Assembly: GCA_022340385.1 (NCBI GenBank)
Contig: JAJDOB010000145.1
Coordinates: 1 to 49,245, forward strand
From: Rhodobacter sp.
GTDB taxonomy: Bacteria > Pseudomonadota > Alphaproteobacteria > Rhodobacterales > Rhodobacteraceae
Length of the DNA stretch: 49,245 nucleotides
Direction of reading: 5' to 3'
This document shows positions 31,470 to 43,919 of the stretch, one piece after another (positions within the stretch are counted from its first letter, which is position 1; every line of letters begins with the position of its first letter). Made by a program: the position numbers and the translations under genes. Under the pieces are notes generated by a model, which was not told the origin of the DNA, searched no databases, and worked only from the letters and a program-made list of their open reading frames with translations.

Positions 31470-31662
31470 TTGTTCGCCTCTTTTATCTGCCTCCGCGGAC
31501 ATCTTGGCAGAACCGAATTAGTTTTCAATTAAAACAGTGTGTTATCACTCTGATTTGACGGCTGCTGAATGCGCCGGATTTGACCATTGCACCCCATATG
31601 ACGGGCAGGTTATAGTCTGCCACAACAACATATAGCGCGCAGAAAAAAGAGCGGACAGGCAC

Positions 31663-34404
31663 TTGAGCGACACGCCGGAACCTCCTGAGAACAAGGAGGA
31701 AAACTCACCCAAGCGCCCCGTATATGACGGGCCGTCGATCTCGATCTCGGACGAGATGAAATCATCCTATCTCGATTACGCGATGAGCGTGATCGTCAGC
31801 CGGGCGATTCCGGACCTGCGCGACGGCTTGAAACCGGTGCATCGCCGCATCCTGTACGCGATGCACGAAACCGGCAATACCCACGACAAATCCTACCGCA
31901 AATCGGCCCGACCCGTCGGCGACGTCATGGGTAAATACCACCCCCACGGCGACAGCGCGATCTACGACGCACTGGTGCGCATGGCGCAGGATTTCTCGAT
32001 GTCGCTGCCGCTGCTGGATGGCCAGGGCAACTTTGGCAGCATGGACGGCGATAACCCGGCGGCGATGCGCTATACCGAGGTGCGGATGGACAAGCCGGCG
32101 GCCTATCTGTTGGCCGACATCGAAAAAGACACGGTGAATTTCCAGGACAATTACGACGGCAAGGACCTGGAACCCACTGTTTTGCCGGCACGTTTCCCCA
32201 ACATGCTGGTCAACGGCGCTGGCGGTATCGCTGTCGGCATGGCAACCAATATTCCGCCCCATAACCTGGGCGAAGTGGTCGATGCGACGCTGGCGCTGAT
32301 CGAGAACCCGGACCTCGATTCAATCGGGCTGATGGAATATATCCCGGCCCCCGACTTTCCCACCGGCGGCGTCATTCTGGGCCGGTCCGGCGCGCGCAAG
32401 GCCTATATCGAAGGGCGCGGCAGCGTCATCATCCGTGCCAAGACCCGGATCGAGGAGATCCGCAAGGACCGCTATGCGATCATCCTCGACGAGATCCCCT
32501 ATCAGGTGAACAAGGCCACGCTGATCGAAAAGATCGCCGAACTGGCCAAAGAGAAAAAGCTGGAAGGCATCAGCCACGTCCAGGACGAATCCGATCGTGT
32601 CGGCGTGCGGGTCGTGATCGAGTTGAAACGCGATGCCACGGCCGAGGTCGTGCTTAACCAGTTGTTCCGGTTCACGCCGATGCAGACCAGCTTTGGCTGC
32701 AACATGCTGGCGCTGAATGGCGGCCGGCCAGAGCAGCTTACGCTACGCGATTTCCTGAGCTATTTCATAAGCTTCCGAGAGGAAGTTGTTGCGCGCCGCA
32801 CCGCGTTCGACCTGCGCAAGGCGCGCGAGCGCAGCCATGTCCTGTGCGGGTTGGCGGTGGCCGTCAGCAATGTCGACGAGGTTGTCGCGACCATCCGTGC
32901 CTCTGCCGATGCCGCCGAGGCGCGCGAAAAACTGATGGAGCGGCGCTGGCCCGCCGGTGAAATCGCGCCGTTCATCCGGTTGATCGACGACCCCAGCCAT
33001 ACAGTGAACGAGGATGGCACCTACAATCTTTCCGAAATCCAGGCCCGCGCGATCCTGGATCTGCGCCTGCAACGCCTGACCCAGATCGGGGTCAAGGAAG
33101 TTACCGACGAGTTGGAGGAATTGGCAGGCAAGATCAAGGACTTCCTGGCCATTCTTCGTTCGCGTGAGCGGATCATGGAGATCATCAGCACCGAGCTGAA
33201 AGAGGTCAAGGAACTGTTCGCGGTGCCGCGCCGCACCGAGATCGTCGACTGGTCCGGCGATATGGACGACGAAGACCTGATCGAACGCGAAGACATGGTT
33301 GTCACCGTCACATCCGGCGGCTGGATCAAGCGCACGCCCCTGGTTGATTTCCGCGAACAGAAACGCGGCGGCAAGGGTCTTTCGGGGATGGCCACCAAGG
33401 AAGAGGATGTCATCACCACCCTTTTCGTGGCCAATACCCACACGCAGCTGTTGTTCTTCACCACGGACGGGATGGTCTACAAACTGAAGACCTGGCGCCT
33501 GCCCCAGGGCGGACGCACCGCCAAGGGCAAGGCCATCGTCAATATCCTGCCGATTCCGACGGGCGTTTCGATTGCCGCGATCATGCCGGTCGACAAGCCA
33601 GAGGATGAATGGGACGATCTGCAGATCGTCTTTGCCACATCCGACGGCTCGGTGCGGCGCAATGCGCTGAGCGATTTCACCAATGTGCGGTCCAACGGCA
33701 AGATCGCAATGAAACTGCCCGACGATGTCAGCATGGTGAACGCCCGGATCTGCACCGAGGACGATGACGTGATGCTGGTCACGGCAATGGGCCGCGCGAT
33801 CCGGTTCCCGACGACGGATGTGCGCGTGTTCAAGGGCCGCGATTCGACGGGCGTGCGCGGGATCCGGCTGGCCAAGGGCGATCATGTGGTCTCGATGGCC
33901 GTGGTCCGGCATTTCCGCGCCGAGGCGGATGAACGGGCCGCCTATCTGAAGATGCGCCGCGCCGTTGCCGGACTGGCGGATGACGCCGAAGGGCTGGATG
34001 AAGACAGCGATCCGAATGCGACGATCACGCCGGAACGCTATGCGCAGATGTCTGCGGCCGAGGATCTGATCCTGACGCTGACGGCAAAGGGCGCCGGCAA
34101 GCTGAGTTCCAGCCATGACTATCCGGTGCGCGGGCGCGGCGGCCAGGGTGTGGCGGCGATGGACCGTGCAATGCGCGGTGGCCGGCTGGTCGCCAGTTTC
34201 CCGGTCGAGATGGACGATCAGATCATGCTGGTCACTTCGACCGGCCAGTCGATCCGCTGCCCGGTCGATGGCATCAGCTTCCGCTCGCGCGGGGCCGGTG
34301 GCGTCAGGGTGTTCAACACCGCCAAGGGCGAAGAGGTGGTTTCGGTGGCCTGGATCGCAGACCAGGGCGAAGACGAGGACGATTCGGACGCCCGCGAAGC
34401 GTGA
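31663..34404 (+). CDS. gyrA: DNA gyrase subunit A
   Basis: ...[29 protein letters not shown]..., the active-site AAMRYTE, and C-terminal beta-pinwheel repeats. TTG start as in the track. 913 aa. Confidence 0.97.
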
Positions 34405-38292: not shown

Positions 38293-38652
38293 CTAGCCGA
38301 TTGGCGTCATCAGTTCGGTCTCTTCCCCGTTCCCGACGGACGTGTAGAAACAGGACCGCCGGTTGGTGTGACAGGCCGGCCCGGTCTGGCGCACAACCGC
38401 CAACAGGCAATCGCGATCGCAATCGAGGCGCAGATCGACCAGTTCCTGCGTATGGCCAGAGGTTTCGCCCTTGATCCAGAACGCCTGACGCGAGCGCGAC
38501 CAATAGGTCACCCGCCGGGTCTGCAGCGTCTTGCCGACCGCCGCGGCGTTCATCCAGGCCAGCATCAACACCTCGCCAGAGCCCGCATCCTGCGCGATGA
38601 CCGGCAGCAGCCCCTGATCGTTATAGACCAATGTCGCGGGATCGAACCCCAT
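38293..38652 (-). CDS. hisI: phosphoribosyl-AMP cyclohydrolase
   Basis: ...LLPVIAQDAGSGEVLMLAWMN...YWSRSRQAFWIKGETSGHTQ...DCDRDCLL...CH..RRSCF. 119 aa, monofunctional HisI. Confidence 0.93.
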   Translation of the reverse strand: MGFDPATLVYNDQGLLPVIAQDAGSGEVLMLAWMNAAAVGKTLQTRRVTYWSRSRQAFWIKGETSGHTQELVDLRLDCDRDCLLAVVRQTGPACHTNRRSCFYTSVGNGEETELMTPIG

Positions 38653-38717
38653 GGGTTTTCCTTTTCAAGCGGCGGACACGCCCCTATGTAGGGAATTGCA
38701 CAGCGTGAGAAAACCCA

Positions 38718-39166
38718 TGAGCGACGGCGATCTGATAAAGCTTTATTCCGGCCGGATTCTGGAACTGGCCGCCGATATTCCGCTGACCGAGCGGCTGGCC
38801 AATCCGCAGGCGACGGTCAAGAAACGCTCGCCCCTGTGCGGCTCGACCGTGACGGTGGATTTGACGCTGCGTGATGGCCGGATCGCCGACTACGGCCAGG
38901 ACGTGAAGGCCTGCGCGCTGGGTCAGGCGGCGGCCTCGGTCGTGGGGGCGAATATTCTGGGCCGCAGCCGCGCCGAGGTGGAAACCGCACGCGACCAGTT
39001 GAAGGCGATGCTGAAATCCGACGGCCCGGTGCCGGATGCGCCGTTCGACGGGTTGCAAGTGCTGTTGCCGGCAAAGGATTTCAAGAACCGCCACGCGTCG
39101 ATCATGCTGACCCTCGAGGCCGCGTCCGAGGCGATGGCGCAAGCCGAAAAATCGGCCTGCGCCTGA
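38718..39166 (+). CDS. iron-sulfur cluster assembly scaffold protein (NifU/IscU N-terminal-like)
   Basis: MSDGDLIKLYSGRILELAADIP...SPLCGSTVTVDL...DVKACALGQAAASVVG.... The preferred start is ATG at 38718; the track ORF from 38651 overlaps the hisI start. Confidence 0.75.
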
Positions 39167-39190
39167 TCGCCTCTCCCCCGGTCAAGGACG

Positions 39191-39227
39191 AAAAAAACCG
39201 CCGCCTTCGGGGACACGAAGGCGGCGG
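39191..39227 (-). terminator. strong rho-independent terminator (minus-strand orientation)
   Basis: On the minus strand, CCGCCGCCTTCG-TGTCCC-CGAAGGCGGCGG (a 12-bp perfect stem) is followed by TTTTTTT. It terminates the transcript that carries the small ORF at 39370-39492. Confidence 0.75.
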
Positions 39228-39369
39228 CAGTGGCGTCTGTTCGTTGGGACGGACCGTATCGCGGGGCGATGGCAATCGCCCTGGGCCGGGGACAGGCAGT
39301 CGGCCGATTTCGCGTCGACTATGGGGACAGGGACGCGCGCGGGGTCGGAAAACAGAACGCAGGCAGAAG

Positions 39370-39492
39370 TTAAGACAAACCGGGCAGATGCAGACCGATC
39401 ACCAGCATCAGAACCAGCGCGGCAGCGCCGGCGAAATCCTGCACCAGCGTGTCGCCGGAACGGATTACGATATCTTTCAGGTCCTTGATCAT
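39370..39492 (-). CDS. unannotated 40-aa tail-anchored small membrane protein (candidate SOS-regulated peptide)
   Basis: Hand translation gives MIKDLKDIVIRSGDTLVQDFAGAAALVLMLVIGLHLPGLS*. A GAGAGG SD lies 9 nt upstream. About 29 of 40 codons end in G or C, consistent with genomic codon bias. A single C-terminal TM segment. The ORF is below the 60-aa cut-off of the ORF track. It has an SOS box upstream and its own terminator downstream. Confidence 0.5.
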   Translation of the reverse strand: MIKDLKDIVIRSGDTLVQDFAGAAALVLMLVIGLHLPGLS

Positions 39493-39554
39493 GGCGGGCG
39501 GCCTCTCAACTTGTTTGTTGCCCCTTTGTTCTCAAATTCGTTTCAAATTGTAAA

Positions 39555-39579
39555 GAACTTTTTAGGAACATTTGTGAAC
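39555..39579 (-). promoter_or_regulatory. alphaproteobacterial SOS (LexA) box, GTTC-N7-GTTC, with a third GTTC repeat
   Basis: The minus strand reads GTTC-ACAAAT-GTTC-CTAAAAA-GTTC, immediately followed by a -35-like TTTACA. The plus strand reads GAAC-TTTTTAG-GAAC (39555-39569). It lies between the recG stop (39598) and the small ORF start (39492). Confidence 0.55.
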
Positions 39580-39597
39580 AAAATGTTACGGAATCAG

Positions 39598-43919
<4,322 letters not shown>

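What the first reader, a model, noticed from the sequence alone, without database searches (positions are those of the whole stretch)
39191..39597. SOS-box-fronted 40-aa tail-anchored membrane peptide downstream of ligA-recG: candidate undescribed SidA/TisB-like SOS effector
The 430-bp stretch between recG and the NifU-like gene looks empty in the ORF track but has the anatomy of an independent minus-strand transcription unit. (a) The minus strand reads GTTC-ACAAAT-GTTC-CTAAAAA-GTTC at 39579-39555. The GTTC-N7-GTTC part is a perfect match to the established Rhodobacter/Rhizobium-type LexA box, and it abuts a -35-like TTTACA. (b) 63 bp further on, a GAGAGG SD precedes an ATG at 39492 that opens MIKDLKDIVIRSGDTLVQDFAGAAALVLMLVIGLHLPGLS. 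The N-half is charged, the C-half is a single TM segment, and codon third positions are G/C-biased like real genes here. (c) A ~140-nt 3' region follows, containing a perfect 7-bp hairpin (GGGCGAT-GGCA-ATCGCCC, 39264-39281). (d) The unit ends in the best terminator in the window (12-bp stem + T7, 39227-39191). LexA-controlled very small hydrophobic proteins have precedents: SidA (29 aa) is the SOS division inhibitor of Caulobacter, and TisB is an SOS-induced type I toxin in E. coli. I know of no characterised equivalent in Rhodobacterales. Its position next to DNA repair genes (ligA-recG) fits an SOS role.
Basis: partly seen in the sequence, partly recalled or inferred. Interest (0 to 1): 0.75.

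Follow-up and report, generated by a model that had tools for sequence, protein, structure and literature searches.

The report
LexA-box small membrane peptide plus structured RNA
Just downstream of recG, roseobacter-type bacteria carry a small, mostly unannotated gene unit. It has DNA-damage (LexA-type) operator sequences, encodes a conserved 40-residue membrane helix, and carries a conserved folded RNA tail that matches no known RNA family. It is a good candidate for a missing piece of their DNA-damage response.

Summary
On the minus strand, 39579-39191 is a self-contained unit. It was found in 34 distinct loci of Rhodobacterales, always downstream of recG where upstream sequence was held.

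- **Promoter.** GTTC-N7-GTTC is fused to TTTACA. Exactly 17 nt later comes an invariant GAACA-N6-CAACA, which reads as a second, imperfect LexA-type box in the opposite orientation at the -10 position.
- **ORF.** The 40-aa ORF is a real gene. Substitutions follow codon periodicity, pN/pS is 0.43 in frame only, and indels keep the frame. The family has more than 200 clusters, all named "hypothetical protein", with no Pfam or NCBIfam model. The product is predicted as one helix, with a polar N-terminal half and a transmembrane C-terminal half.
- **3' region.** It is a covarying multi-helix RNA: 31 of 44 pairs show compensatory changes. It displays repeated GUCCC and CUGCCUG motifs and ends in the strongest terminator of the window. 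No Rfam family reaches threshold. A weak ar7 hit is not reproduced in relatives.

LexA control rests on motif and conservation only. The peptide's role (division brake or toxin) and the RNA's role (3'UTR-derived regulator) are untested. I found no sign of an antitoxin RNA, and a candidate gyrA target was rejected.

The parts
39598..41688 (-). recG (696 aa), the upstream neighbour. Its stop codon TAG lies at 39600-39598, 18 nt before the first GTTC.
   Evidence: NCBIfam RecG equivalog, 1125 bits. The ligA-recG-unit order is kept in every locus with enough flank.
39555..39579 (-). O1, an array of GTTC direct repeats (GTTC-N6-GTTC-N7-GTTC). The core GTTC-N7-GTTC at 39569-39555 is a perfect alphaproteobacterial LexA-type box.
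   Evidence: The core is kept in 33 of 34 units and the upstream third GTTC in 23 of 34. The spacer varies while the GTTC tetramers do not.
39549..39554 (-). TTTACA, a -35-like hexamer (5 of 6 to TTGACA) fused to the last GTTC.
   Evidence: Invariant in the 14-locus alignment A7. In one search TTTACA was part of the search pattern, so that count is not independent evidence.
39515..39531 (-). O2, GAACAAAGGGGCAACAA. It starts exactly 17 nt after TTTACA, at the -10 position. It reads as GAAC-N7-CAAC, an imperfect LexA-type box in the opposite orientation. The predicted transcription start is near 39519 (inferred).
   Evidence: GAACA is invariant, the 17-nt distance holds in 32 of 34 units, and (C/A/G)AACA is kept. 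In L088 it is a perfect GAAC-N7-GAAC.
39502..39507 (-). Shine-Dalgarno-like GAGAGG, 9 nt before the ATG.
   Evidence: Purine-rich SD-like stretches sit at the same place in most loci.
39370..39492 (-). 40-aa ORF MIKDLKDIVIRSGDTLVQDFAGAAALVLMLVIGLHLPGLS. It has a polar, amphipathic N-terminal half (residues 1-20) and a hydrophobic C-terminal half (residues 21-39).
   Evidence: Codon-position differences are 0.36/0.17/0.53 and pN/pS is 0.43 in frame only. The family has 206 clusters at 50% identity and 218 at 90%. AlphaFold gives a single helix, residues 2-39, pLDDT 90.5. Mean Kyte-Doolittle hydropathy is 2.0 for residues 21-39.
39360..39368 (-). Conserved single-stranded UUCUGCCUG right after the stop codon. 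It may be a processing site or a seed (inferred).
   Evidence: Nearly invariant in alignment A2. Left unpaired in the 14 independent folds.
39233..39360 (-). Structured RNA domain. P1 pairs 39360-39351 with 39241-39233. P2 pairs 39346-39340 with 39258-39252. These enclose H1 (39337-39311, loop CUGUCCCCA), H2 (39305-39284, ACUGCCUGUCCCC) and the variable H3 (39281-39264).
   Evidence: The same architecture appears in 14 independent MFE folds. Model R1 hits 18 of 20 loci. 93% of cells are paired against 74% in shuffles and 33-46% when slid, and 31 of 44 pairs carry compensatory changes. The z-score is -5.1. GUCCC occurs 46 times against 9.8 expected, and its complement never occurs.
39191..39228 (-). 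Intrinsic terminator with a 13-bp stem, a loop containing GUCCCC, and U7. It ends the unit and any recG read-through.
   Evidence: the strongest in the window. The stem covaries in 6 of 13 pairs.

Best explanation
This is a self-contained transcription unit that is conserved across Rhodobacterales and most likely repressed by LexA. It yields one transcript of about 330 nt with two functional parts.

The promoter has TTTACA at -35, a 17-nt spacer and GAACAA at the -10 position. It is bracketed by a perfect GTTC-N7-GTTC array that overlaps the -35 and by an inverted, imperfect GAAC-N7-CAAC over the -10/+1. LexA bound there would shut the promoter tightly, and RecA-stimulated LexA cleavage after DNA damage would open it (inferred from motif and conservation).

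The transcript is translated into a 40-residue single-helix membrane peptide. Its N-terminal half is polar and probably cytoplasmic. Its C-terminal half is a transmembrane segment with invariant D19, G22, L34 and P37. The tight, position-specific conservation and the fixed chromosomal site after recG suggest that it binds a conserved membrane partner. My best guess is a damage-induced brake on division or growth that works like Caulobacter SidA, rather than a generic pore-forming toxin (inferred).

The 3' 180 nt fold into a closed multi-helix domain that presents GUCCC and CUGCCUG motifs in loops, followed by the terminator. This most likely acts as a 3'UTR-borne regulatory RNA, possibly released by RNase E at the U-rich UUCUGCC just after the stop codon. 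It would pair with G-rich sites or bind a protein, as the ccaF1-CcsR locus does in the same order (inferred).

Shown here: the unit's anatomy, its conservation, coding constraint on the ORF, and structural covariation in the RNA.
For: - Anatomy at the stated coordinates.
- The box plus TTTACA plus a 17-nt spacer plus GAACA-N6-NAACA recur in 34 distinct units, while the spacers and the flanking sequence vary. O2 is a perfect GAAC-N7-GAAC in L088.
- GTTC-N7-GTTC is the experimentally supported alphaproteobacterial LexA motif. MEME analysis of the promoters of Caulobacter SOS genes, which were defined partly by LexA ChIP-seq, recovered it. It was also the basis of the D. shibae position weight matrix.
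- The unit keeps its own promoter block when roughly 450-600 bp separate it from recG.
- Database ORFs called too long translate the box itself (MFLKSSLQ..., NVLKKFFT...). This shows independently that the box travels with the peptide in further genomes.
- ORF: 3-periodic substitution, pN/pS 0.43 in frame against 0.97 and 2.4 in the shifted frames, and in-frame indels giving 38-42 aa. The family has 206 and 218 clusters, all Rhodobacterales where named. The helix model has pLDDT 90.5. Conserved positions are listed.
- RNA: the same fold appears in 14 independent MFE predictions, with covariation statistics, model hits in 18 of 20 loci and GUCCC enrichment.
- Precedent in the same order: small-protein gene ccaF1 carries CcsR1-4 sRNAs in its 3'UTR. 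They are cut out by RNase E next to U residues in ...UUC... contexts.
Against: - There are no expression, LexA-binding or phenotype data for any member.
- The bare GTTC-N7-GTTC count in the window is not above chance. Direct repeats with a 10-11 bp period could serve another regulator.
- The element at the -10 position (GAACAA) is a poor sigma-70 -10, and the consensus scan finds no promoter here.
- The N-terminal half has no net positive charge, so the topology is uncertain.
- No target of the RNA was found. The one candidate, the gyrA ribosome-binding site, is not conserved.
- The covariation alignment was fitted to the model, which favours the structure.
- Two of the most diverged loci, L022 and L023, were not found by the narrow model.
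- recG has no terminator of its own, so part of the transcription may be read-through.
Confidence: 0.6

Rival explanations
1. It is a type I toxin-antitoxin locus of the TisB/IstR-1 or DinQ/AgrB kind. The peptide would be an SOS-induced membrane-depolarising toxin. The heavy RNA structure would keep the mRNA translationally inert until it is processed, and an unseen antisense or trans sRNA would neutralise it.
For: A small hydrophobic helix sits behind what looks like a doubly operated, tightly shut LexA promoter. Doubled LexA boxes are typical of toxic SOS products (own knowledge). The transcript is very structured.
Against: - There is no space for a divergent antitoxin gene, because the recG stop codon is 18 nt from the boxes.
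- No antisense promoter or plus-strand terminator was found.
- The 3' domain closes on itself rather than on the 5'UTR or SD. The test for cognate 5'UTR/ORF-end pairing was negative, p = 0.54.
- Nine genome hits came from nine different genomes, all at the same site after recG. That is unlike the patchy, multicopy pattern of type I toxins.
- The transmembrane segment has no charged face, and its sequence is strongly conserved.
Confidence: 0.12
2. The 3' structure is only an mRNA stability and termination module for a small-protein gene. It would protect against exonucleases and have no trans-acting role. Only the peptide would matter.
For: It is contiguous with the terminator and always in cis with the ORF. 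No target was found. No second copy occurs without the ORF in any held sequence.
Against: A stabiliser does not need invariant loop sequences. GUCCC is about 4.7-fold enriched and is always unpaired. CUGCCUG is kept single-stranded even in L016, where H2 and H3 are deleted. Extra GUGUCCCC hairpins were gained in L002 and L013. This is the pattern of a seed or a protein-binding motif.
Confidence: 0.15
3. The GTTC repeats are bound by a regulator other than LexA, for example a response regulator that reads direct repeats with a 10-11 bp period. The unit would then belong to another stress or cell-cycle regulon, not to the SOS response.
For: There are three or four direct repeats with mixed N6 and N7 spacing. 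The A-rich spacer is conserved beyond what the LexA consensus demands. There is no binding or expression evidence. The window's raw motif count is at chance level.
Against: The invariant pair is an exact match, in spacing and sequence, to the established LexA box of this class. A second box-like element with the same 11-nt period flanks the promoter and becomes a perfect box in L088.
Confidence: 0.13

Closest known systems
SidA of Caulobacter crescentus (29-aa SOS-induced inner-membrane division inhibitor; per the title of ref. 36 in PMC4211646, it acts by direct interaction with FtsW)
   Same: An alphaproteobacterial small single-helix membrane peptide behind a GTTC-N7-GTTC box. It would fill the same gap, since Rhodobacterales have no described SOS division inhibitor.
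   Different: No sequence relationship was shown. This peptide is 40 aa with a conserved 20-residue polar N-terminal half. It carries a conserved structured 3' RNA. It sits at a fixed site after recG. No division phenotype or FtsW/FtsN interaction has been tested.
TisB/IstR-1 and DinQ/AgrB of E. coli (LexA-controlled type I toxin-antitoxin pairs)
   Same: LexA-boxed genes for hydrophobic peptides of about 30 aa on highly structured mRNAs.
   Different: No antitoxin RNA gene or antisense signal was found. Nine genome hits came from nine different genomes, all at the same recG-adjacent site, and the unit recurs across one order. The transmembrane helix has no charged face. The structure lies in the 3'UTR and closes on itself, rather than in the 5'UTR.
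ccaF1-CcsR1-4 of Rhodobacter sphaeroides (a small-protein gene with 3'UTR-derived sRNAs, PMC8034643)
   Same: Same bacterial order. A stress-controlled promoter drives a small ORF followed by structured RNA with C-rich loop motifs, ending in the shared terminator. RNase E cuts next to U residues in ...UUC... contexts, and UUCUGCC follows the stop codon here.
   Different: The promoter there is RpoHI/HII-dependent, not LexA-boxed. The protein there is a soluble DUF1127 RNA binder, not a membrane helix. The loops there are CCUCCUCCC in tandem hairpin pairs, whereas here GUCCC and CUGCCUG sit in one closed junction. Processing has not been tested here.
Rfam ar7 / Smr7C (RF02342, an sRNA of Rhizobiales)
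   Same: A hairpin loop GUCCCC(C) followed by a G+C-rich terminator. The window gives a full-length hit of 25.6 bits, E = 0.002-0.005.
   Different: The score is far below the gathering score of 60. No hit at E <= 1 was found in 12 related loci. The part of the ar7 model that was displayed shows no enclosing helix, unlike the P1/P2 that close the fold here. ar7 belongs to another order and is an independent sRNA gene, not a 3'UTR.
Dual-function RNAs (SgrS/SgrT, RNAIII/hld, SR1/SR1P)
   Same: One transcript carries both a small ORF under selection and a conserved structured RNA part.
   Different: In those cases the base-pairing function is demonstrated. Here it is inferred from loop conservation only, and none of them is LexA-controlled.

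Membership tests
Alphaproteobacterial LexA (SOS) regulon | GTTC-N7-GTTC direct repeat in the promoter region | tested here: met
   39569-39555 is a perfect match that abuts TTTACA. It is kept in 33 of 34 units.
Alphaproteobacterial LexA (SOS) regulon | The box is conserved with the gene across species while its surroundings drift | tested here: met
   The tetramers are invariant while the spacer and the 17-nt promoter spacer vary. The box moves with the ORF in L002 and L014.
Alphaproteobacterial LexA (SOS) regulon | LexA binding, and RecA/LexA-dependent induction by DNA damage | not testable with these tools
   No expression or binding data were found in the searchable literature. In D. shibae the site lies in an unannotated gap, outside the promoter regions that were scanned.
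SidA-type SOS division inhibitor | Small inner-membrane single-helix protein | tested here: met
   40 aa, helix 2-39 at pLDDT 90.5. The hydrophobic stretch 21-39 has mean Kyte-Doolittle hydropathy of 2.0. Prediction only.
SidA-type SOS division inhibitor | Sequence homology to SidA | not tested
   No SidA sequence was on hand. No Pfam or NCBIfam family covers this peptide.
SidA-type SOS division inhibitor | Blocks division through FtsW/FtsI/FtsN | not testable with these tools
   Needs overexpression, microscopy and two-hybrid assays.
Type I toxin-antitoxin (TisB/IstR, DinQ/AgrB, Hok/Sok) | A cognate antisense or nearby antitoxin sRNA | tested here: inconclusive
   No divergent gene is possible, since recG ends 18 nt upstream. 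There is no promoter-like site on either strand and no plus-strand terminator in 38500-40000. Sequence alone cannot exclude an antisense RNA.
Type I toxin-antitoxin (TisB/IstR, DinQ/AgrB, Hok/Sok) | Translation locked by pairing of the 5'UTR/SD with another part of the mRNA | tested here: not met
   Cognate and non-cognate 5'UTR/ORF-end duplex energies do not differ (-21.85 against -21.93 kcal/mol, p = 0.54). The 3' domain closes on itself.
Type I toxin-antitoxin (TisB/IstR, DinQ/AgrB, Hok/Sok) | Patchy, often multicopy or mobile distribution | tested here: not met
   Nine genome hits from nine different genomes, all at the same ligA-recG-adjacent site. No second RNA copy in the window.
Rfam ar7 (RF02342) | Score at or above the family gathering threshold (60 bits) | tested here: not met
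   25.6 bits. No ar7 hit at E <= 1 in 12 related loci.
3'UTR-derived regulatory sRNA (CcsR/SorX type) | Lies in the 3'UTR and shares the mRNA's terminator | tested here: met
   The domain starts 1 nt after the stop codon and ends at the terminator.
3'UTR-derived regulatory sRNA (CcsR/SorX type) | Conserved structure that exposes conserved single-stranded motifs | tested here: met
   Covariation. GUCCC occurs 46 times against 9.8 expected, and its complement never. CUGCCUG is conserved and unpaired.
3'UTR-derived regulatory sRNA (CcsR/SorX type) | Processed stable 3' fragment and trans targets | not testable with these tools
   The only in-window candidate, the gyrA ribosome-binding site with a 9-nt match, is not conserved in two relatives.
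Cuckoo/CcsR RNA family | CCUCCUCCC loop motif | tested here: not met
   The loops read CUGUCCCCA and CUGCCUGUCCCC. There was no Rfam hit.

The most novel reading that the evidence does not exclude
The unit is a two-output SOS module specific to Rhodobacterales. The 40-aa peptide would be the order's missing LexA-controlled division or growth checkpoint effector. The 3' domain would be a new class of LexA-controlled structured regulatory RNA, whose repeated GUCCC loops titrate a protein or pair with several mRNAs. That would be the first damage-inducible riboregulator of this kind in Alphaproteobacteria.
Probability: 0.25. Interest if true: 0.8.

Novelty: new variant of a known kind. Interest (0 to 1): 0.64.

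Why it matters
Roseobacter-group bacteria are major marine heterotrophs and models for gene transfer agents, whose control involves LexA and CtrA. Their SOS effectors beyond the repair enzymes are unknown. I found no described Rhodobacterales counterpart of SidA, SulA or YneA.

This unit is conserved across the order. It is either unannotated or labelled "hypothetical protein". In Dinoroseobacter shibae, the space where it would lie is an unannotated 400-nt gap after recG. It has the operator architecture expected for a tightly shut damage-induced gene.

It also adds a covariation-supported RNA structure that no Rfam family covers. It offers a natural case of a small membrane protein and a structured RNA made from one damage-controlled transcript. 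All the predictions can be tested with standard genetics in existing model strains.

Tried and rejected
1. **Rfam.** No family reaches threshold in the window. The ar7 hit (25.6 bits) is not reproduced in 12 relatives, so I do not file the RNA under ar7.
2. **Protein families.** Pfam and NCBIfam give nothing for three family members.
3. **5'UTR locking.** In single-sequence folds the SD seemed to pair with the LHLPGL codons and the post-stop UGCC. Cognate pairs are no better than non-cognate ones (p = 0.54), so this is not supported.
4. **gyrA as RNA target.** A 9-nt perfect complement to UGCCUGUCC overlaps the gyrA ribosome-binding site, and a GAAC-N7-GAAC lies in gyrA codons 6-10. Neither is conserved in Maritimibacter or in another relative, so both are chance matches.
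5. **Metagenome scan with GTTC-N7-GTTCTTTACA.** The aim was to find the same promoter in front of known SOS genes. By my count 12 of the 120 returned stretches are this same unit (9 flagged automatically, plus L088, L112 and L114 on inspection). The rest are unrelated chance matches, so the scan gives no independent LexA evidence.
6. **ECF-type promoter** (GAAC as the -35). No conserved -10 follows it.
7. **Coding potential of other frames and of the opposite strand.** pN/pS is about 1 or higher.
9. **Literature.** I found no SOS or sRNA report for this locus in Rhodobacter, Dinoroseobacter or other Rhodobacterales.
Full report
**1. Observation**

Read on the minus strand, the stretch after the recG stop codon (TAG, 39600-39598) contains the following elements.

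| Element | Coordinates |
|---|---|
| GTTC-ACAAAT-GTTC-CTAAAAA-GTTC | 39579-39555 |
| TTTACA | 39554-39549 |
| GAGAGG | 39507-39502 |
| ATG | 39492 |
| 40-aa ORF, ending at | 39370 |
| Hairpin GGGCGAU-UGCC-AUCGCCC | 39281-39264 |
| Terminator stem (13 pairs, 10 G-C), then U7 | 39228-39197, to 39191 |

- The ORF coordinates come and the terminator.
- The terminator is the strongest terminator-like site in the whole 49-kb window.
- The raw GTTC-N7-GTTC count is not significant by itself: 3 found against 1.47 expected. The other two matches lie inside the gyrA and yicC coding sequences.

**2. The unit is conserved and independent**

- The peptide has four metagenomic homologues of exactly 40 aa.
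- Nine genomic loci carry it, in Psychromarinibacter, Maritimibacter, Sulfitobacter, Oceaniglobus and 'Rhodobacter' MAGs.
- A profile search of 1.84 billion representatives gives 206 clusters, most of them exactly 40 aa.
- A second search gives 218 clusters at 90% identity. Where named, they come from Sulfitobacter, Ruegeria, Roseovarius, Rhodovulum, Tateyamaria, Puniceibacterium, Defluviimonas and other Rhodobacterales. All are called 'hypothetical' or 'uncharacterized'.
- Wherever flanks are held, the order ligA-recG-unit is kept, usually followed by the convergent SufU-like gene and hisI.
- In L002 and L014 roughly 450-600 bp lie between recG and the unit's promoter block. That block stays with the ORF. 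This argues for a promoter of its own rather than a recG 3'UTR.
- In D. shibae, recG (Dshi_1510) is followed by an unannotated 400-nt gap of the right size.

**3. Promoter and operators**

I compared 34 distinct units: the window, the fetched loci, and 12 of the 120 stretches returned by a metagenome pattern scan. The other returned stretches are unrelated chance matches.

- GTTC-N7-GTTC fused to TTTACA is present in 33 units; one has N6.
- A third GTTC lies 6 nt upstream in 23 units.
- After TTTACA comes a variable spacer of exactly 17 nt (32 of 34), then an invariant GAACA.
- Six bases later comes (C/A/G)AACA.
- The window therefore reads GAACAAAGGGGCAACAA at 39531-39515.

This second element has the 11-nt period of the LexA box, in the opposite orientation, with one mismatch (GAAC-N7-CAAC). 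In L088 it is a perfect GAAC-N7-GAAC. It sits where a -10 hexamer should be. GAACAA is a poor sigma-70 -10, and the consensus scan reports no promoter here.

My reading is that a -35/-10 pair is sandwiched between two LexA-type operators. That arrangement is typical of SOS genes whose products are harmful (own knowledge: colicins, tisB).

GTTC-N7-GTTC as the alphaproteobacterial LexA motif is supported in two ways:
- MEME analysis of the promoters of Caulobacter SOS genes, which were defined partly by LexA ChIP-seq, recovered it.
- The D. shibae position weight matrix study was built on it.

I also recall the Rhodobacter sphaeroides work of the Barbé laboratory, but I did not re-read it. LexA binding at this locus is inferred, not shown.

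Independent support comes from database ORFs that were called too long. Their N-termini (MFLKSSLQ..., NVLKKFFT..., MRTK.QQ...) are translations of O1 and O2 in further genomes.

**4. The ORF is a gene**

- In a codon alignment of 14 loci, mean pairwise differences at codon positions 1, 2 and 3 are 0.36, 0.17 and 0.53.
- pN/pS is 0.43 in frame. It is 0.97 and 2.39 in the shifted frames and 0.61-2.08 on the other strand.
- The invariant core QDFAGAAALV is full of synonymous changes.
- Length variants of 38, 39 and 42 aa keep the frame.
- Across 51 diverse members, D19 and L34 are invariant. K6, R11, L16, G22, L26, L36 and P37 are nearly so.
- Residues 21-39 are hydrophobic, with mean Kyte-Doolittle hydropathy of 2.0. 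Residues 1-20 are polar with hydrophobic positions at 2, 5, 8, 9, 16, 17 and 20, and net charge close to zero.
- AlphaFold with the family alignment gives one helix, residues 2-39, at pLDDT 90.5.
- No Pfam or NCBIfam model matches.

**5. The 3' region is a structured RNA**

Fourteen sequences folded one by one give the same plan:
- single-stranded UUCUGCCUG directly after the stop codon;
- two stacked long-range helices, P1 and P2;
- then ACAGACGC closes P1, and the terminator follows, whose loop often again contains GUCCC.

A covariance model built from three close sequences finds the element once per locus. It hit 14 of 14 loci and then 4 of 6 more distant ones, and found no other copy in the window. 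The statistics on the resulting alignment are below.

| Measure | Observed | Control |
|---|---|---|
| Cells forming standard pairs | 93% | 74% in shuffles; 33-46% when partners are slid |
| Pairs with changes on both sides | 31 of 44 | 17.4 in shuffles |
| Covariation score | 0.47 | 0.15 in shuffles |

The caveat is that this alignment was fitted to the model. The independent folds do not share that bias.

- The window sequence folds with a z-score of -5.1. The complementary strand gives -4.6, as expected for a symmetric structure. The strand is set by the U-tail and by the G-U pairs.
- GUCCC occurs 46 times in 20 RNAs against 9.8 expected. Its complement GGGAC never occurs.
- Modules come and go. 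L002 and L013 gained an extra GUGUCCCC hairpin. L016 lost H2 and H3 but kept ACUGCCUG unpaired. High-GC relatives L115, L124 and L127 carry a reduced version.

That pattern points to the loop motifs as the functional part.

**6. What it is not**

- **Not ar7.** The score is 25.6 bits against a threshold of 60. The hit is absent from 12 relatives. The part of the ar7 model that was displayed shows no enclosing helix, and ar7 belongs to another order.
- **Probably not a type I toxin-antitoxin pair.** There is no room for, and no signal of, an antitoxin. The nine genome hits came from nine different genomes, all at the same site after recG. There is no cognate 5'UTR locking.
- **gyrA is not supported as a target.** A tempting 9-nt complement at the gyrA ribosome-binding site, together with a LexA-type box inside gyrA, failed the conservation test.

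**7. Mechanism**

The steps below are marked as shown or inferred.

- *Shown:* a conserved unit with its own conserved promoter block; a translated-type ORF under purifying selection; a covarying RNA fold with conserved exposed motifs; a strong terminator.
- *Inferred, fairly likely:* LexA repression through O1 and O2, and induction by DNA damage.
- *Inferred, moderate:* the peptide is a tail-anchored membrane helix that acts on a conserved membrane partner. A SidA-like division or growth brake is my first choice because of the position-specific conservation and the fixed chromosomal site after recG.
- *Inferred, moderate:* the 3' domain is a regulatory RNA carried in the 3'UTR. It may be cut out by RNase E at the U-rich post-stop sequence, as at ccaF1-CcsR in R. 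sphaeroides, where cleavage occurs in ...UUC... contexts.

**8. Novelty and score**

- LexA-controlled small membrane peptides are a known kind (SidA, TisB, DinQ, YneA, SosA). This family matches no Pfam or NCBIfam model and is unnamed. I did not compare it directly with the SidA, TisB or DinQ sequences.
- The RNA fold matches no Rfam family at threshold.
- I know of no described case that joins a LexA-boxed promoter, a membrane micro-protein and a structured 3' RNA across a whole order.
- I rate it a new variant of a known kind, with interest 0.64. It would interest specialists in the SOS response, small proteins and sRNAs in Alphaproteobacteria, and it can be tested at once. Every functional statement is still inference.

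Noticed in passing
window 31651-31692 (+): The gyrA start region holds a 9-nt perfect complement (GGACAGGCA) to the RNA's UGCCUGUCC motif, right at the ribosome-binding site. It also holds a perfect GAAC-N7-GAAC in codons 6-10. Neither is conserved in two related gyrA loci (L147, L148), so both are chance matches.
   Followed up: yes
L012:1620-1838(-), L019:1622-1812(-), L017:41-295(-), L020:1679-1720(-): Weak Rfam hits to Yersinia sRNA Ysr141 (22-38 bits against a threshold of 196) recur antisense to the recG coding region in four loci. The model probably overlaps a conserved helicase-coding segment.
   Followed up: no
L002:243-617(-) and L014:2353-2950: In two loci, extra sequence lies between recG and the unit: about 590 bp to the ORF in L002 and about 650 bp in L014. 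In L002 it includes a 124-aa ORF on the opposite strand with no Pfam match. Its origin is unknown.
   Followed up: partly
Dinoroseobacter shibae NC_009952.1, 1573042-1573442 (from a paper's supplement): The model roseobacter has an unannotated 400-nt gap between recG (Dshi_1510) and the next gene. The gap has the size of this unit. I could not fetch the sequence to confirm.
   Followed up: partly
P0008, P0011, P0014, P0017, P0021, P0047, P0057 (database proteins): Many database entries for this family are called with false N-terminal extensions. These extensions are translations of the operator and promoter DNA (MFLKSSLQ..., NVLKKFFT..., MRTKxQQ...). This is an annotation artefact that happens to document conservation of the boxes.
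   Followed up: yes
L114:131-274: A divergent 47-aa variant (MDNFFSNARKSNAEEARRLETKEAIKDAIGAFAIIAMLYIGLFIPSL) sits behind the same O1/TTTACA/O2 promoter. It appears to lack the usual 3' RNA and terminator within 420 nt.
   Followed up: no
window 41685-41688: The ligA stop codon and the recG start codon overlap by 4 nt, which indicates an operon. recG has no terminator of its own before the unit, so read-through into the unit is possible.
   Followed up: no
window 38651-39166 (+): The convergent downstream gene is only a weak SufU/NifU_N match: 50 bits against a cut-off of 92.5, and Pfam 19.5 against 22. A gene of about 146-153 aa sits at that position in most of the held loci; their products carry no precomputed Pfam hit. 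It may be an uncharacterised Fe-S scaffold-like family.
   Followed up: no
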